Shown piece by piece: positions 15,120 through 57,187 of a DNA stretch of 64,000 nt. Position numbers and translations under genes: made by a program. Location of the stretch: sequence record NC_019500.1, one strand, 5' to 3'. Positions within the stretch are counted from its first letter, which is position 1. Every line of letters starts with the position of its first letter. The notes beneath the pieces are model-generated. The model ran no database searches. It saw nothing but the letters and a program-made list of their open reading frames with translations, and was not told the DNA's origin. Source of the DNA: Escherichia phage Bp7.

Positions 15120-15572
15120 ATGATTATCAATGCAAACTCTTGGCACGTTAAATTACACGACCGTTTTTATGACCGTCATTCTCGACCACACTCTTTGTGT
15201 GCTTACTTCTGGAAAATGGTTTGGGCTTGTTTTGCTTGTGCTGTTGTTGCAGGTAGTACGCTTTTTGGATTAACTGTTGCAGGTGTTGGTGTATTAGAGC
15301 ATTTCTTTGTATTAAGTACCCCTGTTCTGTTGAGTCTAGGGTTTGTTTTAGGATTGGTTGCAATAGCTCTTATTATTGCGCTATCCATTGGTTTGGCATT
15401 CGGTGCGATGAATTTACACGCATGGTATGATGCCCGTAGAGAAGAAAAGGAATGGCAACGTATTCAAGCTGAGCGTGAAGGCCGAGAAACTAAAGAAAAC
15501 GTTGTCATCCAATATATCAAAGCTCGTAAATCTAAGGTCTGTCCGGTAATCCACTTCGAGAACAAAGAATGA
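15120..15572 (+). CDS. membrane protein (150 aa)
   Basis: Two long hydrophobic helices then a charged tail. Confidence 0.55.
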   Translation: MIINANSWHVKLHDRFYDRHSRPHSLCAYFWKMVWACFACAVVAGSTLFGLTVAGVGVLEHFFVLSTPVLLSLGFVLGLVAIALIIALSIGLAFGAMNLHAWYDARREEKEWQRIQAEREGRETKENVVIQYIKARKSKVCPVIHFENKE

Positions 15573-16579
15573 GAACAGTTATGAAAGGCTACTTCGGTAG
15601 CCATCTTTATGGAACGAGTACTCCGGAATCTGATGTCGATTTTAAAGAAATCTTTGTTCCACATCCGCGTGATATTCTGTTGGGTACGGCAATGAACCAT
15701 ACCAACCTGAACACGAATAACACTGCTTCCAAAAACACCAAAGATGATGTTGACCATGAGCTTTACAGTCTGAAATATTTCTTTAAACTGGCGGCAGATG
15801 GCGAAACCGTTGCTCTGGATATGCTCCACACTCCACCTGAAATGGTGGTTAAATCTGATTTACCTGATGTATGGAAATTTATCCAAGACAATCGTTCTCG
15901 GTTCTATACGACTAACATGAAAGCCTATTTAGGGTACGTCCGTAAGCAAGCTTCTAAATATGGTGTTAAGGGTTCTCGACTAGCTGCACTGCGTGGTGTA
16001 CTGGCTATTGTTAACCAGATTCCTGAACAGTGGGTCGATTATCAAGAAGATGGTTCGACTAAGCAACGTCGTACTCGTGTAGAAGATATCAAACATCGAC
16101 TCCCTGAAAACGAATTCTGTGAATGGGTATTCCATAACCATGAGAAAACAGGCCCTCAAACGTTCTATACTGTTCTTGGACGTAAGTACCAAACTACTTT
16201 ATCTTTAATCGAGCTCAAGCAATCTCTGAATAAGCTCGATGCGGAATATGGTGAACGGGCCCGTAAAGCTGAAGCTAACGAAGGTATTGACTGGAAAGCT
16301 CTGAGCCATGCTTATCGCGCAGGGTATCAATTGTTGGAAATCTACCAAACAGGCGACCTGGTGTTCCCATTGCGCGAAGCCTCTATCATTAAGCTGATTA
16401 AAGCCGGTGAATTACCATTTAAAGAAGTTCAAGAACTTCTTGAAGATACTGTTGATTTGGTTGAAGTCCTAGCCATCCAGGCATCTAAGAACGGTATGCC
16501 TGAGAAGGTAGACATGAAGTTCTGGGACAAGTTCGTTGAAGAGGTATACCTCGACAACCACAACTCGTATTATAAATGA
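15569..16579 (+). CDS. nucleotidyltransferase-fold protein (pol-beta-like NTase superfamily)
   Basis: N-terminal GSHLYGTSTPESDVDF matches the G[GS]x9-13Dh[DE] NTase signature; about 336 aa. Confidence 0.55.
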   Translation: MRTVMKGYFGSHLYGTSTPESDVDFKEIFVPHPRDILLGTAMNHTNLNTNNTASKNTKDDVDHELYSLKYFFKLAADGETVALDMLHTPPEMVVKSDLPDVWKFIQDNRSRFYTTNMKAYLGYVRKQASKYGVKGSRLAALRGVLAIVNQIPEQWVDYQEDGSTKQRRTRVEDIKHRLPENEFCEWVFHNHEKTGPQTFYTVLGRKYQTTLSLIELKQSLNKLDAEYGERARKAEANEGIDWKALSHAYRAGYQLLEIYQTGDLVFPLREASIIKLIKAGELPFKEVQELLEDTVDLVEVLAIQASKNGMPEKVDMKFWDKFVEEVYLDNHNSYYK

Positions 16580-16582
16580 TAA

Positions 16583-16602
16583 AAGGCCTTCGGGCCTTTT
16601 TT
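16583..16602 (+). terminator. rho-independent terminator
   Basis: AGGCC-TTCG-GGCCT followed by TTTTTT. Confidence 0.7.
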
Positions 16603-16622
16603 GGGTTTAGTGCAAAAAAGAG

Positions 16623-16650
16623 TTTACACTCTCGTAGAGCATGTTATTAT
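16623..16650 (+). promoter_or_regulatory. early promoter
   Basis: GTTTAC, 16 nt, TATTAT, then GGACCTATCAA box variant. Confidence 0.45.
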
Positions 16651-16687
16651 GGACCTATCAAATCTACTGAGTGAAATGGAGAATATA

Positions 16688-17668
16688 ATGTTAACTATCA
16701 AAATCAACAAAGGTATCTATCGCGGTAATGTAATCTCTGGTACGTTCATGAGTTCAGGTAAAACCTGGTTCCCTAATAAAATTCATGAATCCGAAGCTCA
16801 CCTAGGTGATGGCAAGGTATTCGTACAGATTGATGGTGTTGAACGTGGTGTATGGGTGTTCAAATGTGATATCGAAACCGAAGGTGCTGGAGCTCCTGCA
16901 ATGGTTACTGAATCCGCTGAAGAAATGAAACATCGCATTAACAAACGTTTTAAAGTAATGAACATGATGACTAATGGAATCATCGATGGTAAAATTCGTT
17001 CCCTTATCATCTCTGGTGCCGCAGGTATTGGTAAAACGTATTCTTTGGATAAAGCATTACAGAATGCCCACGAAAATGAAACTATCGAATATAAATCAAT
17101 CAACGGAAAGATTAGTGGAATCGGTCTTTACGAGCAGCTTTGGAATAACCGCGGCCCTAATAGTGTTCTTCTTATCGATGATGTTGATGTATTCTCTGAT
17201 ATGGATATCCTGAACCTTCTGAAAGCGGCATTGGATACCGGTGAAAAACGTAAGGTGTGCTGGAGCACTTCAAGTTCTTACCTCGATGATAAAAATATCG
17301 ATAAAGAATTCGAATACGAAGGCACCATCGTGTTCATCACCAACGTTGATATTGACCGTGAATTAGAGCGTGGAACTAAACTTGCTCCACACCTCCAGGC
17401 TTTAGTATCTCGTTCAGTTTACTTAGACCTCGGAGTTCACTCGAACGAAGAGATTATGGTTCGTGTTGAAGACGTTATCCTGTCCACTGATATGATGCAA
17501 AACCGTGGTCTGACTGACGCCGAGACTTACCAAGCTTTAGCATGGATGAAGGCTAATGTATCTCGTCTTCGTAACGTATCATTACGTACAGCTCTTTATC
17601 TGGCGGATTTCATTGCCACCGATAAAAATGACTGGGGTGAAATCTCTGAAGTTACACTTCTGAAATAA
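16688..17668 (+). CDS. AAA/P-loop ATPase (326 aa)
   Basis: Walker A GAAGIGKT, Walker B LLIDDVD; start ATG 16688 after GGAG. Confidence 0.6.
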   Translation: MLTIKINKGIYRGNVISGTFMSSGKTWFPNKIHESEAHLGDGKVFVQIDGVERGVWVFKCDIETEGAGAPAMVTESAEEMKHRINKRFKVMNMMTNGIIDGKIRSLIISGAAGIGKTYSLDKALQNAHENETIEYKSINGKISGIGLYEQLWNNRGPNSVLLIDDVDVFSDMDILNLLKAALDTGEKRKVCWSTSSSYLDDKNIDKEFEYEGTIVFITNVDIDRELERGTKLAPHLQALVSRSVYLDLGVHSNEEIMVRVEDVILSTDMMQNRGLTDAETYQALAWMKANVSRLRNVSLRTALYLADFIATDKNDWGEISEVTLLK

Positions 17669-18087: not shown

Positions 18088-18582
18088 ATGAACGCTAAAG
18101 ATATTTTTTCACTGATTAATTTCAACAACGGTAATTTCAAATCTGAAAAACAAAGCAAGTTCTTTAACGACGTTGCTTGTGGTAATGAGATTACTGTATC
18201 TGGAGGAGAGATTTACAAAAGCCGTTGGAACTGGATTGTTATCATCGATTCAGTTGGTATTGTAGAGCTCTATAAAAACACCAACAAAAAACGTACTCTT
18301 CACTGGAGTCGTGAAACCAATCAAGCTTATCAAGCTGAACGTAACAAACGTTTAATGCCTACCGAATCCGACCTGGCAAACGTTAAATCTGATATCGCTT
18401 ATTTCGATAATCTGATTGCTGAACAACAAGCTGTTATTGATAAGTTTGACGAAATCAAAGCTTGTAAAGAGATTCCTGAATTCATGCGGGAATCAGTAAA
18501 CGAACAGTACGCCCTCACTTCAGGTCGATCAATAGTGCGAACCCCTGCAAGTCGAACATCTGGGAGAGCTCCGATCGCGTAG
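18088..18582 (+). CDS. hypothetical protein (164 aa); 3-prime end runs into vector-like sequence
   Basis: ATG 18088 after GGAGG; last ~18 codons are encoded by polylinker-like sequence, so the native C-terminus is probably lost. Confidence 0.45.
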   Translation: MNAKDIFSLINFNNGNFKSEKQSKFFNDVACGNEITVSGGEIYKSRWNWIVIIDSVGIVELYKNTNKKRTLHWSRETNQAYQAERNKRLMPTESDLANVKSDIAYFDNLIAEQQAVIDKFDEIKACKEIPEFMRESVNEQYALTSGRSIVRTPASRTSGRAPIA

Positions 18583-18592: not shown

Positions 18593-18678
18593 GTTTAAAG
18601 ACGGTTCTCGCATAAACGCTTTATACCAAGGATGGTATAATGGTTCTAGGTTCTTAATTACTTACTGAGGAAATTATT

Positions 18679-19518
18679 ATGTCACAGGCAATTAATCAAA
18701 TTCGTTCTGAAGTTAAAAAAGTTGTTAAATTCGGACGTATTCCGAGTTCTAAAGAAGTGGTTGAAAAGGTTTTGGCCATGATGTGGGAAAAGTTTGAAGT
18801 TTGTATTTCTGTAGATGAATTCACTAAAATCTTTGACAAGACTAGGATGTTTACGTTAGAAGACCGAGTCATGAAATCTCTTCACAGGGCCGGTATGTTG
18901 ACTCGTGCTAACGCCAGAATTATTCTTAGAAATTATAACAAAGGCTATGACCTCTATGGTCGTTTAATCCCGGCGATGTCATTTGATGAAGTTGTTAAAG
19001 ACCTTCGTACTAACCAACGACGTTTACTAGCACTGGGTGCTCGTCTAGCTTTAGGTAAAGATAAGCAAATGCCATTTAAGACTAATGGTTCAGGCGATTG
19101 GATTATCTTTAATATTGTCAACCAACCAGGTAACGAAAACGAGTATCTTACTTCAACTTTTAGTGGTTGTCAATATGACAACTGGAAATTCCATCTTCGA
19201 TTGGCTTTGTCTGAACTCGAACGTAGCGGTATTCTTACCTTCGATAATGTTAATACCAGTACAGGCTGGCGTATTAAACTTGTTAAGCCAGGTAATGAAG
19301 TTAAGAGTCATTCAGAAGCTCCTAAACCGGAACCTGTACCAGTGCGCAGCAATGAGAAGCATCAAGCTCAAATCGAGTATTTTAGCAATTTGCTTACTTG
19401 CTTGAATGTTACAATTCAGCAACAAGATGATGAGATTTTCCGACTCTCTGGTCTGAATGCTAAAGCCAAGGCTGAACGCCAGAAATATATCGATATCCTA
19501 AATCTTCTTAAGGATTAA
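18679..19518 (+). CDS. hypothetical protein with C-terminal coiled coil (279 aa)
   Basis: ORF with TGAGGAAATTATT RBS module; C-terminal heptad-like region. Confidence 0.6.
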   Translation: MSQAINQIRSEVKKVVKFGRIPSSKEVVEKVLAMMWEKFEVCISVDEFTKIFDKTRMFTLEDRVMKSLHRAGMLTRANARIILRNYNKGYDLYGRLIPAMSFDEVVKDLRTNQRRLLALGARLALGKDKQMPFKTNGSGDWIIFNIVNQPGNENEYLTSTFSGCQYDNWKFHLRLALSELERSGILTFDNVNTSTGWRIKLVKPGNEVKSHSEAPKPEPVPVRSNEKHQAQIEYFSNLLTCLNVTIQQQDDEIFRLSGLNAKAKAERQKYIDILNLLKD

Positions 19519-19519
19519 T

Positions 19520-19708
19520 ATGGCTACTTTAATTATTGGTTCTATTTTTGGATACCTTGTGATAGGATTCATTACTACTGTATTAATCCACAAATTTGAC
19601 AGCTGTTTTGAAAAAGGTGATGAGTATGATGCAGTGTTCACTACTCTCGCCTGGCCTATATTCTGGGTTACAGGTATTGTTCTGGCTATAGTGTGTGCCT
19701 ATGGCTAA
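19520..19708 (+). CDS. small membrane protein (62 aa)
   Basis: Two hydrophobic helices. Confidence 0.5.
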   Translation: MATLIIGSIFGYLVIGFITTVLIHKFDSCFEKGDEYDAVFTTLAWPIFWVTGIVLAIVCAYG

Positions 19709-19737
19709 ATTCTATAAAAAATTATTTGGACTTTAAT

Positions 19738-20607
19738 ATGAACATTAAAACACGTAAAGAATATTCCCGATATGATTTTGGTGTAACCAAGCGTATCGCT
19801 ATCGATCGGCTGGCCGACTTCGGCCATATTTGTAATGGTAATTATACTTATGGTGTAGGTCGTAAAGGGACTTATATTAGTTCTTTGAACGATTATTGCC
19901 GTGGCCCAGCCAACCTGTTTGGTGTAACATTGCGAGCTAATATCAAAGACCTCTTGGCTACCGCAGGACGTATTTCTACGGTTCCTGTTAATATCAAGAA
20001 TATTAATTTTACGGCTCGTAACCTAGTCATTAATATTCTGAATGACGGCATTCAAGTTCGTTTCCGTCCTACCTCAAAAGGTAATAAGGCCCTTCGTGAA
20101 GCATTTGAAACCTTATTCAGGGAAGCAATGACTCGTATTAAGGCTGTAGAATCATATAAGGTTACAACAGATGAATATGCTGATTGTTCCGGACGGCCCG
20201 ATGCAGTGTATTTTAATGTTAAACTAACTCGTGAATATCTTTTGTCTTATGCCCCTTATCAATCCCAACAAAAGGAACCGGAAATGGAACGACGTATCTC
20301 TGCAGTATCATGTGACAGCGTAGGCCAGTATGCAGCCTATGACAGATTCAAAACCACGGCTGTACCGAGTCCATTCAATTCCGAACCGTATCATTGGAAA
20401 ATTAAACCTGATAATTCTTTGGTTGTTACTAACCCTACGATGAAACCCATCGAGAAGTATCATGAGGACCACCTCCAGGAATCAATCCACCGTTTAAACG
20501 GTCAGATTGAAGATGAGAAAAAGAGTATCCAAGACGTATTGATTCGCATCAAGAACATGGAAATCCAGCGTGACAAGCTTAGCGCGGCAGTATTAGCTCT
20601 AAAATAA
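19738..20607 (+). CDS. hypothetical protein with C-terminal coiled coil (289 aa)
   Basis: ATG 19738 in frame with track ORF 19693; C-terminal heptad-like region. Confidence 0.55.
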   Translation: MNIKTRKEYSRYDFGVTKRIAIDRLADFGHICNGNYTYGVGRKGTYISSLNDYCRGPANLFGVTLRANIKDLLATAGRISTVPVNIKNINFTARNLVINILNDGIQVRFRPTSKGNKALREAFETLFREAMTRIKAVESYKVTTDEYADCSGRPDAVYFNVKLTREYLLSYAPYQSQQKEPEMERRISAVSCDSVGQYAAYDRFKTTAVPSPFNSEPYHWKIKPDNSLVVTNPTMKPIEKYHEDHLQESIHRLNGQIEDEKKSIQDVLIRIKNMEIQRDKLSAAVLALK

Positions 20608-20608
20608 T

Positions 20609-20638
20609 GTTTACATCCAAGGACGGATGGAGTATAAT
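20609..20638 (+). promoter_or_regulatory. early sigma70-type promoter
   Basis: GTTTAC 20609-20614, 18 nt, TATAAT 20633-20638; CATCC/GGATG inverted repeat in spacer. Confidence 0.45.
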
Positions 20639-20665
20639 CTTTTTAAATCTACTGAGGAGAATATC

Positions 20666-21676
20666 ATGACTCGTACTGAATACATCAATGCCTTTACTAC
20701 GTATATCACTACCAACACCCCTCCGTTAACCCCATACGAGGTAATAGTTTCTAATATCAATAAATGGGTCGACCAAATTGATGATGCATTATCGCGCTGT
20801 TTCAAAGCCGAAATCGAAAAGATTGCAGGCCGTTTGTGCATTCATGATATCATTAAAACATTTAAAGGTTCTCGACTGCTTTCGCGACTGGTCAATAAGG
20901 ACATCCTTTCAGAGTTCGGCAAAGAGAAATATCCGGGTTCTAGCCATGTTGTTAGCTACAAATGGTTTGGTGATACCATAAAAGGTTATGTCAAAATTAA
21001 AGGTATGGACCCTAGTAGTTTATTTCCGCAACGTTGGGTTAGCGAATTCAAGGCTAACTCTGCATTAATTCTCAAAGCGGCCTCTAAAACTATAGTTTCC
21101 GGTGATTGTCGTACTATTCACCCTATGGCTAATTGCATGATTAAAACAAATAGTTATAAAGGAAAAGCTATTATTTCTGTTATTTGGTCGCCTAATAGGA
21201 AACCTAAAGATGATGCGGAAGTTGTAAAGTATCAAGATATTGCTTACGATACCTTGAATACTATCGAACAAGCTTTAGCTCTGATGGATACCGTAGAGAA
21301 ATATGAGACCCAAGAAGTTAAACACCACTTAGGCTGGAAAGGATATGAAGTCTTAGTAACAGTCCGTGAAATCAAATGTACCGTTCCAAAAACTGACGCT
21401 GAAATTTACCAAGAAAAATGTGAGGAAATTGTGAACACTGATAAAGAGCCTGCTACATTAGAAGACTTGATTAACGACTTGAACAGCCCTATCATGGCCC
21501 CTACACCAATTACTAAATCCAAGTTACCGGAAATAGTGGCCTTAGAAAAAGCGTATAAAGATGCCCTGGCTATTAACAAAAAACTGACTGGACAATATAC
21601 TGCTGCCAAGAAACTTTGGGAAGAGTCTACCAATCGTTTAGACCGTCTTGAACAGGCTCTGGAGCTGCTGAAATGA
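20666..21676 (+). CDS. hypothetical protein with C-terminal coiled coil (336 aa)
   Basis: ATG 20666 after TGAGGAGAATATC; C-terminal heptad-like region. Confidence 0.55.
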   Translation: MTRTEYINAFTTYITTNTPPLTPYEVIVSNINKWVDQIDDALSRCFKAEIEKIAGRLCIHDIIKTFKGSRLLSRLVNKDILSEFGKEKYPGSSHVVSYKWFGDTIKGYVKIKGMDPSSLFPQRWVSEFKANSALILKAASKTIVSGDCRTIHPMANCMIKTNSYKGKAIISVIWSPNRKPKDDAEVVKYQDIAYDTLNTIEQALALMDTVEKYETQEVKHHLGWKGYEVLVTVREIKCTVPKTDAEIYQEKCEEIVNTDKEPATLEDLINDLNSPIMAPTPITKSKLPEIVALEKAYKDALAINKKLTGQYTAAKKLWEESTNRLDRLEQALELLK

Positions 21677-21984
21677 AACAACGTTTAGCTGAAGATATTG
21701 CTTCAGCATCTAATACCGGCTTATTGAAATTTATTAAAGCCGCTGATGTTGAAGTTGAATTGGTTGGTAAAATTCATGGTTGTGATGATTATGGTGATGC
21801 CGTTAATTGGGATGCTGTAATGGCTATGGTCGCACGACGAGAACAAGCTTCTAAGAATGTTCCTAATTGTCCTAAGTGCGGCACAGAACAGGTTCAGTTG
21901 GTTCAATGGCGCCATAATCCGCTTCAGTATAAATGCCGCCATTGCAAACACCGATTTGAGCGAGAAGAAAATGGCAAAGTGTAA
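21673..21984 (+). CDS. zinc-ribbon protein (103 aa)
   Basis: CPKCG...CRHCKH four-Cys motif. Confidence 0.5.
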
Positions 21985-22207
21985 AGAATATGTAGAGGCT
22001 GCCGATAAGGCAGTCCGCGAACTTACTCTAGCTTATTATAAAGAGCACGGTAAATTTCCGGACAGTTATTCAGTATTGAAATCTGCTTTAACTCGCTCGT
22101 ATAATAATATACTATCTGATGTGTATAATTTAAAATATGAGCACATGGAAAAATACGGAACAGAACTCGACCGTTCTGAAGCATTCAAACAAATATTAGG
22201 AATTTAA
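21971..22207 (+). CDS. hypothetical protein (78 aa)
   Basis: ATG 21971 overlapping upstream gene end. Confidence 0.45.
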
Positions 22208-22208
22208 A

Positions 22209-22472
22209 ATGTTTAAAGTTTATGGTTATGATTCAAATATTCACCGTTGTGTTTTCTGTGATAATGCCAAACGACTGCTTGATGTTAAGAAACAACCTTA
22301 CGAATTCATTAACGTGATGCCGGAAAAAGGTGTATTTGATGATGAGAAGATTGCCGAACTCCTGGCTGCTCTTGGACGCGAATCTCAGGTAGGTTTGACT
22401 ATGCCTCAGGTATTTGCTCCGGACGGAACTTCTATTGGTGGCTTTGACCAACTGCGAGCGTATTTCAAATGA
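22209..22472 (+). CDS. nrdC: thioredoxin/glutaredoxin NrdC
   Basis: 87 aa; CVFC redox motif; strong similarity to T4 NrdC. Confidence 0.9.
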   Translation: MFKVYGYDSNIHRCVFCDNAKRLLDVKKQPYEFINVMPEKGVFDDEKIAELLAALGRESQVGLTMPQVFAPDGTSIGGFDQLRAYFK

Positions 22473-22630
22473 TTGAACTATTGTTGAGTGTTTTGTATCT
22501 TATCATCGGTATTGGTTATGCTAAGACCCTAGCTAAATTAGATGATTCAGGTGACTTTTGTTGGTGGCTGACGTCTATGATTTGTTGGCCTTTATTTCTG
22601 GTTGGTGCTTCATTCTGGAACTTTAAATGA
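22469..22630 (+). CDS. small membrane protein (53 aa)
   Basis: ATG overlaps nrdC stop; hydrophobic; below the 60-aa cutoff of the ORF track. Confidence 0.4.
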   Translation: MIELLLSVLYLIIGIGYAKTLAKLDDSGDFCWWLTSMICWPLFLVGASFWNFK

Positions 22631-29430: not shown

Positions 29431-30453
29431 ATGAAAATTTTGAATATAGGTGATTTGCATATCGGAGTAAAAGCCGATGACCCTTGGATTCAGGAAATCC
29501 AGCTTAACGGTATTAAACAGGCTGTAGAATATTCTAAAGCAAACAATATTGATACATGGATTCAATATGGTGATTGGTTCGATGTACGCAAGGCTATCAC
29601 CCATAAATGTATGGAATTTAATCGTGGTCTGGTGGAAATTATCAGCGATGCAGGTATTAAAGTCCATGTTATAATTGGTAACCATGATGCAACGTTTAAA
29701 AATAGCATAACTCCTAATGCGGTTTCTGAACTTCTTACTCAGTATGAAAATTTTACTGTTTACGAGAAACCTACTACTGTTAATTTTGATGGCACCGAAA
29801 TTGATTTGATTCCATGGATGTGTGAAGAAAACACGACCGATATCATGGACCATATCAAAAATACTACTGCCGATTTCTGTATTGGCCACTGGGAATTAAA
29901 TGGTTTCTATTTCTATAAAGGAATGAAATCACATGGTTTAGAACCTGATTTCCTTAAGAAGTATAAGCAAGTATGGTCTGGTCACTTCCACACCATTTCT
30001 GATGCAGCAAACGTCAAGTATATTGGTACGCCATGGACCCTGACTGCAGGTGATGAGAACGACCCTCGTGGCTTCTGGATTTTCGATACAGAAACCCATA
30101 AAATGGATTTCATCATCAATGAAACTTGTTGGCATCGTAAGATTCATTACCCGAATGCGACTATCGATTACAAAGATTTTACAAATATTGCGGTTCGTGT
30201 TATAGTCGATAAAATTGATGACGGGCTTACTAAGTTCGAATCTGAACTTGAAAAGGTTGTTCACTCTTTACGTATTGTGTCTAAGGTAGATAACAGTGTT
30301 GATATCGATGATTCTGAAGAGGAAGATGAAGTTAAGTCCCTCTTGGATATGATGTATGATTATATCGATGCCCTTCCTGATGGCCACACTGAAGACGATG
30401 TTAAAGCCCTTAAGACCATGGCTGCACAACTTTATAATGAGGTTACACGATGA
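29431..30453 (+). CDS. 47: recombination nuclease subunit gp47 (Mre11-like)
   Basis: 340 aa; phosphoesterase motifs DLHIG, GDWFD, GNHD, GHWE. Confidence 0.9.
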   Translation: MKILNIGDLHIGVKADDPWIQEIQLNGIKQAVEYSKANNIDTWIQYGDWFDVRKAITHKCMEFNRGLVEIISDAGIKVHVIIGNHDATFKNSITPNAVSELLTQYENFTVYEKPTTVNFDGTEIDLIPWMCEENTTDIMDHIKNTTADFCIGHWELNGFYFYKGMKSHGLEPDFLKKYKQVWSGHFHTISDAANVKYIGTPWTLTAGDENDPRGFWIFDTETHKMDFIINETCWHRKIHYPNATIDYKDFTNIAVRVIVDKIDDGLTKFESELEKVVHSLRIVSKVDNSVDIDDSEEEDEVKSLLDMMYDYIDALPDGHTEDDVKALKTMAAQLYNEVTR

Positions 30454-30713: not shown

Positions 30714-30912
30714 ACATGATTTTCATATTGGCGATGGCTGGTTCGGTAATGTAGAATGGGACGTGGATGGTTCTTGGTATACCGGAACTATGTATGTCAC
30801 TTCTGGATATTCTGAAGGTGTTTCATGGGCCATGGAACTTGACGACGTGTTTGCTTCTTCCGAAGAAATGCTAGAATATGCCGAACAAACAATTCGTGAG
30901 AACAATACATGA
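30697..30912 (+). CDS. hypothetical acidic protein (71 aa)
   Basis: ATG 30697 overlapping upstream gene end. Confidence 0.45.
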   Translation: MTKMYKHDFHIGDGWFGNVEWDVDGSWYTGTMYVTSGYSEGVSWAMELDDVFASSEEMLEYAEQTIRENNT

Positions 30913-32586
30913 AGACTTTTAAGTTAAAGAAAGTAACGTATAAAAATATCATGTCAGTAGGCCAACAGCCTATTACAATCCAACTTGATAAGGTCCAAAA
31001 GACCTTAGTCACAGGTAAAAATGGTGCAGGGAAATCTACGTTCCTTGAAGCTGTTACATTTGCTCTGTTCGGTAAGCCTTTTCGTGATGTTAAGAAAGGG
31101 CAATTAATTAACTCAAGTAACAAGAAAGACCTTTTGGTCGAACTGTGGATGGAATATGATGGCAAAGAATACTACATCAAACGTGGGCAAAAACCGAACG
31201 TTTTTGAAATCTCTTGTGGCGGTGAACGTCTTGATGAATCTGCCAGCAGTAAAGACTTCCAAGCAGAATTTGAACAGCTTATCGGAATGTCCTATGCAAG
31301 CTTCAAACAGATTGTCGTTCTTGGCACGGCAGGGTATACCCCCTTCATGGGTTTGTCAACCCCAGCGCGTCGAAAGCTGGTGGAAGACCTTTTAGAGGTT
31401 TCTGTATTAGCGGATATGGATAAGTTGAACAAATCTTTGATTCGTGAGACTAATAGCCAAATCCAGGTGATAGACGTTAAACAGGATTCTATTACCCAAC
31501 AAATTAAAATTTATAATGACAACGAAGAACGTCAACGTAAATTATCTGGCGAGAACGCGGCACGACTACAAACAATGTATGATGAGCTCGTTAAAGAAGC
31601 CAGGACTGCGAAGGGCAATATAGAAAAACTAACTGATGAATTACTCAATGTCATCGTCGATGATGACCCTAGCGACTCCATGAGTGACCTGAGTAATAAA
31701 GGATTTGCAATCAAGAATGATATGGCAACCTTTACGAAGGTCGTGAAATTATACGAAACTGGTGGCAGCTGTCCTACATGTATGCAAGGATTGGAAGAAC
31801 ACGGGAACATCCTTACTAAAATTAAGGATAAGAACTTTGAGCTTCAAAAATCTTTGGATAAGATTAATGAGCAATACCAAGAGCTCAAACTTATTAAAGA
31901 CCAAGTAACCGAACAACGTAATAAAGCGCTGGCTATTAAATCTCAGATAGCTACTCATAAGCAACAAGCCATTACTGCCGTAGAGAAAGCTAAAAAAGTT
32001 AAAGTATTAATCGACCAAGCAGCTGCTGAGTTCGTAAGTAATGCCGAAGAGATTGCCGCGCTTCAAGCAGAGCTTGATAAAATCGTCTCTACCAAATCCA
32101 CATTGGTAATGGAAAAATATCATCGTGGAATTCTGACAGAATGTTGAAGGATACTGGTATTAAAGGTTCCATTATTAAGAAATACATCCTATCTTTAATA
32201 AGCAGATAAATTCTTATTTGAAGATTATGGAAGCCGACTACGTCTTTACACTAGACGAAGAGTTCAATGAGACGATTAAATCACGTGGACGTGAAGACTT
32301 TAGTTATGCTTCATTTTCACAGGGTGAGAAAGCACGTATTGATATCGCACTACTTTTTACATGGCGTGATATTGCTGAAAAAGTCAGTGGAGCCACATTA
32401 GTACATTAGTGTTGGATGAAGTTTTGATGAGCAGTTGACGCTGAGGCTGTTAAGGCGATTGCAAGTATTCTTAATAATCTTGAAGACAGTAATGTTTTTA
32501 TAATCAGCCACAGGGACCATGACCATCAAGCATATGGCCAGCATTTACAAATGAAAAAGGTTGGTCGATTTACAATTATGGAATAA
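30909..32586 (+). pseudogene. 46: recombination ATPase gp46 (Rad50/SbcC-like), 3-prime end disrupted
   Basis: Walker A GKNGAGKST and zinc hook CPTC are intact to 32147; C-terminal SQGEKARIDIALLF, LVLDEV and ISHRD are spread over shifted frames with an 8-bp tandem duplication at 32395-32410. Confidence 0.75.
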
Positions 32587-56521: not shown

Positions 56522-57187
56522 ATGCCTACTATTAAAACTAACGATGAATTTGAGTTAAAGGTTTACAAACGTCGCGAACACACTAAAGCCTCTGCCAAAA
56601 AACGTGGTAAGGACTTTAACCTGTCTAGTAAGTACGTTCGTAGACTTCTTGAACAAAAAGTGTGTGCATATTCAGGCGAGCGCTTTGATGAGAATTCAGA
56701 TAAAGATAAGATTTCGTTTGAACGCTTTAACAACGATATAGGTTATATCGAAGGTAATGTAATCCCGGTTAAAGTTAAGTACAACGGGTTGCGAGCTGAT
56801 TTGTCTTTAGATGAATTGAAACGTGCACAGACTCGTTTAGCGTCCCGTATTTCAGGTGGTTCTAAAATGCCTAATAGTTTTAAAGTTACCCCAGATAATT
56901 ATTATAAAATTCGTAAAATAGTTAAAAATATTAAAGATACCCAAAGAGGTCTTAAAAAGCGTGAAAAACGTCTTAAGGACCTTATTAAATCAGGAGCCAC
57001 TGATAATACCCCTTCTGTCATCGCGGTTAAGGCCCGTATCCATGGTTCTAACGCTTCAATAGGTACTATGGAAAAGGGTCTCAAATCTATATTGGTGGGC
57101 CTGATTGGCGTGTCAAGTTTAAATTGTCTGAAGCAGAAACGCGTTACTATATGTATGATAAAATTATTCAAGGTCTGGAGCGTTTAG
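56522..57187 (+). CDS. endonuclease-VII/HNH-like domain protein, possibly degenerate (221 aa)
   Basis: N-terminal KKRGKDFNLS...CAYSGERF...NNDIGYIEGNV resembles Endonuclease_7-type domains but lacks obvious catalytic His. Confidence 0.4.
   Translation: MPTIKTNDEFELKVYKRREHTKASAKKRGKDFNLSSKYVRRLLEQKVCAYSGERFDENSDKDKISFERFNNDIGYIEGNVIPVKVKYNGLRADLSLDELKRAQTRLASRISGGSKMPNSFKVTPDNYYKIRKIVKNIKDTQRGLKKREKRLKDLIKSGATDNTPSVIAVKARIHGSNASIGTMEKGLKSILVGLIGVSSLNCLKQKRVTICMIKLFKVWSV

What the first reader, a model, noticed from the sequence alone, without database searches (positions are those of the whole stretch)
18679..21676. Three consecutive proteins with unrelated N-domains but each ending in a coiled-coil segment
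ORFs 18679-19518, 19738-20607 and 20666-21676 have different globular N-terminal regions but each ends in a ~40-50 residue heptad-like, K/E/Q-rich stretch. A shared oligomerisation or targeting tail on diversified heads resembles cassette-type effector or packaged-protein families. No family could be assigned by eye.
Basis: inference. Interest (0 to 1): 0.4.

Follow-up and report, generated by a model that had tools for sequence, protein, structure and literature searches.

The report
T4-type NrdC.4/5/6 early-gene paralog array
The three genes are the NrdC.6, NrdC.5 and NrdC.4 genes of a T4-like coliphage: each really does end in a coiled-coil-type helix, at least two are diverged copies of one ancestral gene, and the T4 version of the middle one is already known to disarm the bacterial Dsr1 defence, so this is a known kind of phage accessory gene cluster seen a little more clearly.

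Summary
The window is a Dhakavirus (T4-like) genome. The three ORFs are orthologs of T4 NrdC.6 (P1), NrdC.5 (P2) and NrdC.4 (P3).

**Tails confirmed.**
- Each protein ends in a Pro-free stretch of about 49–52 residues with significant heptad periodicity (P1 p≈0.01, P2 p≈0.0002, P3 p≈0.003).
- AlphaFold2 models the tails of P2 and P3 as single long helices behind a disordered linker.
- All tails share the same C-terminally anchored register and an L-x-x-A-L-x-L-L-K end.

**"Unrelated N-domains" is wrong for P2 and P3.**
- Their profiles align collinearly from head core to C-terminus (hhalign probability 91%, E 1e-6).
- Both models hit the same Straboviridae proteins.
- P1's head is only weakly linked and is unresolved.

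**Other points.**
- Within each family the tail is much more conserved than the head. Between families the tails are only 22–29% identical.
- A 62-aa membrane ORF separates P1 and P2.
- Promoters are of early and middle type, with no late promoter nearby and no DNA repeat between tails. Packaging and cassette shuffling are therefore not supported.

**Function.** T4 nrdC.5 is published as counteracting Dsr1. The best reading is a tandem array of early counter-defence paralogs built as head, linker and oligomerising coil. The genes are known; the shared architecture is a modest new insight.

The parts
18618..18641 (+). Middle-promoter-like site before P1: GCTTTA (MotA-box-like), 12 bp, TATAAT
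   Evidence: Read directly from the sequence. The match to the T4 MotA-dependent middle-promoter layout rests on my knowledge of T4 promoters and was not tested.
18679..19518 (+). P1, NrdC.6 ortholog (279 aa): head about aa 1-205, Pro-rich linker about aa 206-228, heptad tail aa 229-279
   Evidence: BLASTP vs T4 NrdC.6 gives 47% identity, E 9e-47. phrog_2257 scores 2.5e-122. Homologs carry PF26899.
19363..19515 (+). P1 C-terminal heptad tail (aa 229-279), ending ...YIDILNLLKD
   Evidence: Heptad periodicity p=0.0096 vs within-tail shuffles. The tail is 59-71% identical to distant orthologs, against 41-61% for the head. There is no structure model.
19520..19708 (+). Small 62-aa predicted membrane ORF between P1 and P2. 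It is not part of the family but interrupts the 'consecutive' array.
   Evidence: ORF with an AGGA Shine-Dalgarno sequence directly after the P1 stop. It is annotated in IME540. It is weakly similar to the 53-aa ORF 22469-22630 (E 0.002).
19738..20607 (+). P2, NrdC.5 ortholog (289 aa, DUF7235): beta-beta-alpha-beta-beta head core at aa 96-163, disordered linker 171-236, helix 238-288
   Evidence: Pfam PF23882 scores 1.5e-115. T4 NrdC.5 hits the same family at 5e-126. BLASTP vs T4 NrdC.5 gives 24% identity over the full length, E 1e-16. AF2 model.
20449..20604 (+). P2 C-terminal coiled-coil-type helix (aa 238-289), with a=Ile/Val and d=Leu, ending ...LSAAVLALK
   Evidence: AF2 helix 238-288 with pLDDT 70-90. 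Heptad p=0.0002. Register.
20609..20638 (+). Early-type promoter before P3: GTTTACA, 17 bp, TATAAT
   Evidence: Promoter scan gives 11/12 matches. Sequence read directly.
20666..21676 (+). P3, NrdC.4 ortholog (336 aa): confident head at aa 1-235, low-confidence linker 240-287, helix 288-335
   Evidence: BLASTP vs T4 NrdC.4 gives 44% identity, E 8e-81. phrog_1435 scores 6.7e-147, and T4 NrdC.3 also belongs to that family. AF2 mean pLDDT 80.6.
21527..21673 (+). P3 C-terminal coiled-coil-type helix (aa 288-336), ending ...LEQALELLK
   Evidence: AF2 helix 288-335. Heptad p=0.003. The tail is 65-73% identical to orthologs whose heads are 26-40% identical.

Best explanation
The three genes are the Dhakavirus versions of T4 nrdC.6, nrdC.5 and nrdC.4. 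They form a tandem array of non-essential, pre-replicatively expressed accessory genes.

At least P2 and P3 (and T4 NrdC.3) descend from one ancestral gene and keep one architecture. This is an alpha/beta head with a beta-beta-alpha-beta-beta core, a disordered Pro-rich linker, and a seven-heptad C-terminal helix ending in L-x-x-A-L-x-L-L-K.

The most likely function is counter-defence. Each head binds a different host immune protein, as T4 NrdC.5 neutralises the NAD-depleting, capsid-sensing Dsr1. The family-specific coiled coil homo-oligomerises the protein: probably as a parallel dimer for P2, judged from Ile at a and Leu at d positions. This would give avidity and keep paralogs from mixing.

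**Shown:** orthology, P2/P3 paralogy, the helix and its periodicity, tail conservation exceeding head conservation, and the early/middle promoter context.

**Inferred:** oligomerisation, that the heads are the target-binding parts, and that P1, P3 and this diverged P2 also act against defence systems.
For: **Identity and orthology.**
- The window is 97.7% identical to Dhakavirus IME540.
- Synteny with the IME08 and T4 nrdC clusters.
- BLASTP orthology to T4 NrdC.6, NrdC.5 and NrdC.4.

**Paralogy.**
- phrog_1435 covers T4 NrdC.3 and NrdC.4 full-length. phrog_26858 bridges the NrdC.4 body and the NrdC.5 tail.
- hhalign of P2's family vs the NrdC.3/4 profile: probability 91%, E 1e-6, residues 13-289 vs 69-336, score 52.7 against at most 20.9 for shuffles.
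- The order of secondary-structure elements matches in the two AF2 models.
- Both models hit the same Straboviridae proteins: Cronus, PS2 and fPS-65.

**Tails.**
- Periodicity p values of 0.0002-0.01.
- Identical C-anchored register, 48-52 residues long.
- Tails are 59-73% identical where heads are 26-49% identical within families, but only 22-29% identical between paralog families.

**Function.**
- T4 nrdC.5 expressed from a plasmid restores plating of a deletion phage on Dsr1-carrying cells, and the gene is non-essential (PMC9391042).

**Expression and distribution.**
- GTTTACA-N17-TATAAT before P3, GCTTTA-N12-TATAAT before P1, and no TATAAATA nearby.
- The family is confined to T4-like phages. 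There are only 7 representatives among 1.84 billion for the NrdC.3/4 profile, and 526 phage records for P2, all enterobacterial T4-likes.
Against: - Only T4 NrdC.5 has an experimental phenotype. P2 is just 22-24% identical to it, so its specificity may differ.
- No function is known for NrdC.3, NrdC.4 or NrdC.6.
- P1's head is not demonstrably homologous. The hhalign score of 23.0 is beaten by a reversed control at 25.2.
- Tail homology between families is not statistically established by sequence.
- Oligomerisation is inferred from heptads and monomer models only. No multimer prediction was possible.
- The P2 model is of low overall confidence (mean pLDDT 53.7).
- A tail that is better conserved than the head could equally mean that the tail is the functional binding element.
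Confidence: 0.6

Rival explanations
1. The conserved C-terminal helix is the working part, not an oligomerisation handle. It docks onto a conserved host or phage partner, for example by inserting into a defence protein or a host machine. The heads are then variable regulatory or shielding domains.
For: - Within every family the tail is the most conserved segment.
- Each paralog keeps its own distinct tail sequence (22-29% identity between families), as expected if each tail has its own partner.
- P3's a/d positions are atypical for a canonical coiled coil, with Tyr/Tyr/Trp at a and Ala/Ala/Ser at d.
Against: - Uninterrupted heptads over seven repeats with Ile/Leu cores in P2, T4 NrdC.3 and T4 NrdC.5 are typical of self-associating coils.
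- In arms-race proteins the target-contacting surface is usually the fast-evolving part. This rests on general knowledge and was not tested here.
Confidence: 0.2
2. The heads are early-expressed copies of a tail-terminator or tail-completion-like fold. They act as decoys, or as competitive binders, for host sensors that recognise phage structural proteins.
For: - Foldseek with both models lists tail terminator/completion proteins at probability up to 0.96.
- Bacterial Avs and Dsr sensors are reported to recognise core structural proteins, including tail terminators (10.64898/2026.01.04.697583).
Against: - Dsr1, the one known target, is reported to sense the major capsid protein, not a tail terminator.
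- No sequence similarity to any tail protein was found.
Confidence: 0.1
3. The proteins are packaged or injected virion proteins, or cassette-type modules that exchange heads by recombination at the shared tail.
For: - The build is modular.
- One metagenomic homolog (P0151) carries an unrelated N-terminal half on a P2-type back half and tail.
- T-even internal proteins are a precedent for a shared targeting peptide on diversified anti-defence bodies (PMC9391042).
Against: - No DNA repeat of 14 nt or more links the tails.
- The P2 and P3 heads are homologous, so no head swapping is needed to explain them.
- Promoters are early and middle type, and no late promoter lies in the region.
- The T4 capsid-targeting signal is N-terminal, and plasmid-expressed NrdC.5 works from the cytoplasm.
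- P0151 comes from a 1.9-kb contig and may be a chimeric assembly.
Confidence: 0.05

Closest known systems
T4 NrdC.5 (anti-Dsr1 counter-defence protein; Pfam DUF7235/PF23882, phrog_2351)
   Same: P2 is its syntenic ortholog. It belongs to the same Pfam and PHROG families, aligns over the full length, and has the same head-linker-coil build and the same ...L-x-x-A-L-x-A-L end.
   Different: Identity is only 22-24%. P2 is 51 residues shorter at the N-terminus. Activity against Dsr1 has not been tested for the Dhakavirus protein.
T4 NrdC.4 and NrdC.3 (PF26897 / phrog_1435), function unknown
   Same: P3 is the NrdC.4 ortholog (44% identity, E 8e-81). NrdC.3 is a paralog in the same PHROG with the same architecture.
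   Different: The window phage has no NrdC.3 copy, so it carries three large paralog-type genes where T4 has four.
T4 NrdC.6 (PF26899 / phrog_2257), function unknown
   Same: P1 is its ortholog (47% identity over 179 residues, E 9e-47).
   Different: The T4 reference protein lacks the coiled-coil tail because its reading frame diverges after residue 259. Other Tequatrovirus copies (P0090, 296 aa) and P1 keep the tail.
T-even internal proteins (IPI, IPII, IPIII)
   Same: They are a set of diversified, non-essential anti-defence proteins in T4-like phages that share one short conserved module (PMC9391042).
   Different: Their shared module is an N-terminal capsid-targeting sequence and they are packaged. 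Here the shared module is a C-terminal 50-residue helix, and the promoter context is early or middle, not late.
DSAD1 (anti-DSR2 protein of SPbeta-like phages)
   Same: It is a phage protein that blocks a SIR2-type NADase defence sensor by direct binding (abstracts listed).
   Different: No sequence or structural relation was found. It targets DSR2, not Dsr1, and comes from a different phage group.

Membership tests
NrdC.5 / DUF7235 (PF23882) | Score above the Pfam gathering threshold over the full length | tested here: met
   P2 scores 386 bits (cut-off 30), E 1.5e-115, residues 1-289 on profile positions 9-307.
NrdC.5 / DUF7235 (PF23882) | Syntenic position between the nrdC.6 and nrdC.4 orthologs in the nrdC cluster | tested here: met
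   The gene order nrdC.8, nrdC.6, (small ORF), P2, nrdC.4, nrdC.2, nrdC.1, nrdC matches T4 and IME08.
NrdC.5 / DUF7235 (PF23882) | Ability to overcome Dsr1 | not testable with these tools
   This is shown only for T4 NrdC.5 (PMC9391042). P2 is 22-24% identical to it.
NrdC.4/NrdC.3 (PF26897, phrog_1435) | Full-length profile match | tested here: met
   P3 matches phrog_1435 at 6.7e-147 over 1-336. All its homologs carry PF26897.
NrdC.6 (PF26899, phrog_2257) | Full-length profile match | tested here: met
   P1 matches phrog_2257 at 2.5e-122 over 1-279. Its homologs carry PF26899.
Proposed NrdC.3-6 superfamily (head, linker, C-terminal coil) | Homologous head core (beta-beta-alpha-beta-beta) | tested here: met
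   This applies to P2 and P3. hhalign gives 91%, E 1e-6, and shuffles score at most 20.9 against 52.7. They share Foldseek targets.
Proposed NrdC.3-6 superfamily (head, linker, C-terminal coil) | P1 head homologous to the NrdC.3/4/5 heads | tested here: inconclusive
   hhalign scores 23.0 against shuffles of at most 19.2, but a reversed control scores 25.2. BLASTP of P1 vs T4 NrdC.3 gives E 0.002 over 98 residues. Foldseek of the P3 model vs the Sf25 NrdC.6 homolog gives E 7e-4.
Proposed NrdC.3-6 superfamily (head, linker, C-terminal coil) | C-terminal helix of about 50 residues with heptad periodicity, ending in L-x-x-A-L-x-L-L-K | tested here: met
   All three window proteins and T4 NrdC.3, NrdC.4 and NrdC.5 meet it. 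The motif was defined post hoc.
Coiled-coil oligomer | Self-association through the tail | not testable with these tools
   Only monomer AF2 models and the heptad pattern are available.
Thioredoxin/glutaredoxin (the product name given in many GenBank records) | Thioredoxin-fold domain match | tested here: not met
T-even internal (packaged) proteins | Late expression and an N-terminal capsid-targeting sequence | tested here: not met
   Early- and middle-type promoters, and no TATAAATA between 12945 and 33344. The conserved module is C-terminal. The capsid-targeting motif itself was compared only by eye.

The most novel reading that the evidence does not exclude
NrdC.3, NrdC.4, NrdC.5 and perhaps NrdC.6 form one fast-evolving superfamily of early-expressed, coiled-coil-oligomerised proteins whose heads derive from a tail-terminator-like structural fold. 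On this reading each paralog acts as a decoy or blocker for a different bacterial sensor of phage structural proteins (Dsr1, Avs-type receptors). The nrdC cluster would then be an 'anti-sensor island' whose copy number and head sequences track the host's receptor repertoire.
Probability: 0.1. Interest if true: 0.7.

Novelty: new member of a known kind. Interest (0 to 1): 0.35.

Why it matters
T4-like phages carry many small, non-essential early genes of unknown function, and the nrdC.x block is one of the larger such blocks. Showing that NrdC.5, the only member with a known role (anti-Dsr1), shares ancestry and architecture with NrdC.3/NrdC.4, and shares its build with NrdC.6, turns three or four 'hypothetical proteins' into concrete candidates for further counter-defence factors. 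It also suggests a simple design rule of a variable head on a family-specific coiled coil, which could be tested by head swaps and tail deletions. It corrects the widespread 'thioredoxin' mislabel on these genes. The finding does not reveal a new kind of system.

Tried and rejected
- **Pairwise BLASTP among P1-P3** found nothing.
- **First hhalign with narrow family profiles** (Neff about 2) gave only E 0.002 for the P2/P3 heads and nothing for the tails. Significance for P2/P3 appeared only after adding NrdC.3-type sequences and P0190.
- **Tail-only HMMs against all window ORFs plus reversed decoys** gave no cross-family hits, except the NrdC.5-type tail to the T4 NrdC.3 tail at E 0.013. Tail homology is therefore not proven by sequence.
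- **A first, crude heptad score against whole-protein shuffles** was significant only for P2. It was replaced by within-tail shuffles.
- **Deep profile search of 1.84 billion representatives with the NrdC.4 alignment** returned only 7 hits and no bridge to other families.
- **PDB sequence search** found no relatives.
- **NrdC.8 as a fourth, shorter member** was not supported (hhalign E 0.05-0.4).
- **P1 against a merged NrdC.3/4/5 profile** scored below a reversed-sequence control.
- **Other high-heptad ORFs in the window** (29431-30453, 30909-32147, 56522-57187) look, from reading the translations, like gp47-, gp46- and HNH-type proteins. They are not hit by any family HMM.
- **DNA repeats between tails** were not found.
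- **Literature:** no paper in the library beyond Srikant et al. 2022 assigns a function to nrdC.3-6. The mentions of nrdC.8 are incidental.
Full report
**Where we are.** The window is a T4-like coliphage of the genus Dhakavirus. The 4-kb stretch around the finding is 97.7% identical to phage vB_EcoM_IME540 and 93.6% identical to IME08. The region is the nrdC.x block of pre-replicative genes, read on the window's + strand.

BLASTP against T4 gives the orthology:

| Window ORF | Coordinates | T4 ortholog | BLASTP result |
|---|---|---|---|
| P1 | 18679-19518 | NrdC.6 | 47% identity, E 9e-47 |
| P2 | 19738-20607 | NrdC.5 | 24% identity over nearly the full length, E 1e-16 |
| P3 | 20666-21676 | NrdC.4 | 44% identity, E 8e-81 |

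Family assignments agree with this:
- P1 matches phrog_2257, and its homologs carry PF26899.
- P2 matches PF23882 (DUF7235) at 1.5e-115 and phrog_2351.
- P3 matches phrog_1435, and its homologs carry PF26897.

T4 has a fourth gene of this size, nrdC.3, which the window lacks.

**Checking the observation.** The ORFs are real, conserved genes. P1 and P3 share a TACTGAGGA..AT.ATG motif upstream, and P2's N-terminus is conserved among homologs.

The genes are not strictly consecutive. A 62-aa hydrophobic ORF with its own AGGA ribosome-binding site sits at 19520-19708, and it is annotated in IME540.

The C-terminal heptad stretches are real:
- Shuffling only the last 49 residues, the best-register a/d score is reached in 0.96% (P1), 0.02% (P2) and 0.3% (P3) of 5000 shuffles. 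T4 NrdC.3, NrdC.4 and NrdC.5 and a Tequatrovirus NrdC.6 behave alike.
- AlphaFold2 places one uninterrupted helix at P2 238-288 (pLDDT 70-90) and at P3 288-335 (pLDDT 66-81). Each follows a low-confidence linker.

**Are the tails alike?** By sequence statistics, barely.
- BLASTP finds nothing between the three proteins.
- hhalign on the narrow family profiles finds no significant tail match.
- Tail-only HMMs searched against all 289 window ORFs plus reversed decoys cross-hit only once. The NrdC.5-type tail hits the T4 NrdC.3 tail at E 0.013, aligned end to end.

Descriptively, the resemblance is clear.
- All tails are 48-52 residues long, with seven heptads.
- The best register is the same in every family when anchored on the C-terminus.
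- All end in [LY]-x-x-[AI]-[LIV]-x-[LAV]-L-K. That motif occurs at the C-terminus of no other window ORF, but I derived it after seeing the sequences, so this is not an independent test.

**Are the heads unrelated?** Not for P2 and P3.
- phrog_1435 covers both T4 NrdC.3 and NrdC.4 full-length. phrog_26858 matches the NrdC.4 body and the NrdC.5 tail.
- With an NrdC.4 profile enlarged by NrdC.3-type sequences and the divergent P0190, hhalign aligns P2's family to it collinearly (13-289 vs 69-336). The probability is 91% and E is 1e-6.
- The real score is 52.7. Twenty column-shuffled controls score at most 20.9.
- The two AF2 models show the same element order: helix, beta hairpin, long helix, beta hairpin, disordered linker, terminal helix.
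- The two models independently hit the same BFVD proteins from other Straboviridae. These are Erwinia phage Cronus, Serratia phage PS2 and the NrdC.3-like protein of Yersinia phage fPS-65.

For P1 the evidence is thin.
- BLASTP to T4 NrdC.3 gives E 0.002 over 98 residues, spanning the last head helix, the linker and most of the tail.
- Foldseek of the P3 model against the Sf25 NrdC.6 homolog gives E 7e-4.
- The collinear hhalign alignment scores 23.0. This exceeds 20 shuffles (at most 19.2) but not a reversed-sequence control (25.2).

I therefore treat P1's head as unresolved.

**Pattern of conservation.** Within each orthologous family the tail is the best conserved part:

| Pair | Head identity | Tail identity |
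|---|---|---|
| P3 vs P0190 | 26% | 73% |
| P3 vs T4 NrdC.4 | 40% | 65% |
| P2 vs P0145 | 49% | 71% |
| P1 vs P0090 | 41% | 59% |

Between paralog families the tails are as diverged as the heads, at 22-29% identity. So each paralog maintains its own tail. There is no DNA repeat between the tails, which argues against recombinational cassette exchange.

**Context and expression.**
- P3 is preceded by GTTTACA-N17-TATAAT, an 11/12 match and the shape of a T4 early promoter.
- P1 is preceded by GCTTTA-N12-TATAAT. This matches the MotA-dependent middle-promoter layout as I know it from the T4 literature, and the sequence was read.
- The late-promoter core TATAAATA is absent between 12945 and 33344.

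Together with the cluster's position, this points to pre-replicative expression rather than virion proteins.

**Function.** The only experimental datum is for T4.
- A deletion phage that cannot plate on cells carrying Dsr1 from ECOR17 is rescued by plasmid-borne nrdC.5, which the authors describe as an uncharacterised early gene. The deleted genes are non-essential (PMC9391042).
- A 2026 preprint reports that the Dsr1 sensor domain, shared with Avs7, is activated by the phage major capsid protein (10.64898/2026.01.04.697583).
- How NrdC.5 blocks Dsr1 is unknown.
- No paper in the library assigns a role to nrdC.3, nrdC.4 or nrdC.6, and no PDB relative exists by sequence.

By homology and architecture, the most economical reading is a tandem array of counter-defence paralogs. 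A diversifying head would carry target specificity, and a family-specific coiled coil would drive homo-oligomerisation. P2's a positions are Ile/Val and its d positions Leu, which by the classical GCN4 rules suggests a parallel dimer. This is inference.

The core is a simple alpha/beta sandwich that also matches unrelated proteins at similar Z. Dsr1 senses the capsid protein rather than a terminator. The idea that the heads are decoys of structural proteins therefore stays speculative.

**Distribution.** The families are confined to enterobacterial T4-like phages. P2-type proteins occur in 526 of 50,697 phage records, at over 80% identity in Dhakavirus, about 50% in a second group, and about 22% in Tequatrovirus. 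The NrdC.3/4 profile finds only 7 representatives among 1.84 billion proteins. No further paralog is present in the window.

**Verdict.**
The tails are real, the 'unrelated heads' claim is wrong for two of the three proteins, and a small ORF sits between P1 and P2.
The proteins are a modular effector family with a conserved tail, but they are neither cassettes nor packaged.
- The genes are known T4-type accessory genes, and one family has a published counter-defence role.
- The shared architecture and the P2/P3/NrdC.3 paralogy are a modest addition that nominates NrdC.3, NrdC.4 and NrdC.6 as candidates for further anti-defence functions.

Noticed in passing
window 18528-18582 (3' end of nrdC.8, ORF 18088-18582): A patch of about 55 nt is scrambled relative to IME540 and IME08, with indels, roughly half the bases changed and a premature TAG at 18580-18582. 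The flanks are identical. After the stop, the same frame continues with YEERLKTVLA, which is the normal C-terminus. In the relatives and in T4, NrdC.8 ends in a heptad-like tail that this window copy has lost.
   Followed up: partly
L002 10067-10894 (T4 reference nrdC.6): T4's annotated NrdC.6 (275 aa) is 99.6% identical to the common Tequatrovirus protein (P0090, 296 aa, a cluster of 940 sequences) up to residue 259. It then diverges and stops early. An apparent frameshift removes the coiled-coil tail in the reference strain or its sequence.
   Followed up: partly
window 19520-19708 and 22469-22630: Two small hydrophobic ORFs (62 and 53 aa) are weakly similar to each other (BLASTP E 0.002, shared ...WP(I/L)F..(T)G... 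motif). One sits between P1 and P2 and the other just after nrdC. They may be a small membrane-protein paralog pair.
   Followed up: partly
P0151 (336 aa, from a 1873-nt ENA contig): This homolog of P2 matches DUF7235 only over residues 187-336 (back half of the head, linker and tail). Its N-terminal 186 residues are unrelated. It is either a natural head replacement or a chimeric assembly.
   Followed up: partly
P0089 (Shigella phage Sf25, 378 aa): This NrdC.6 homolog has an internal tandem duplication of about 80 residues that covers the end of the head, the linker and the start of the tail.
   Followed up: no
GenBank records matched: Many records label NrdC.4, NrdC.5 and NrdC.6 homologs as 'thioredoxin'. 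No thioredoxin domain is detectable, so the name seems to have spread from the neighbouring nrdC gene. A 2026 paper likewise treats nrdC.8 as a nucleotide reductase.
   Followed up: yes
window 15569-17668: The nrdC.11 (nucleotidyltransferase-annotated, 336 aa) and nrdC.10 (P-loop motif GAAGIGKT, 355 aa) orthologs lie just upstream. They are separated by a strong hairpin with a T-run at 16581-16600. This pair of unknown function might be another accessory module.
   Followed up: no
window 21673-21984 and 21857-22207: The nrdC.2 ortholog has weak, sub-threshold matches to zinc-ribbon families and contains two CxxC pairs. It overlaps the nrdC.1 ortholog by 128 nt in another frame, as is also annotated in IME08 and IME540.
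   Followed up: no
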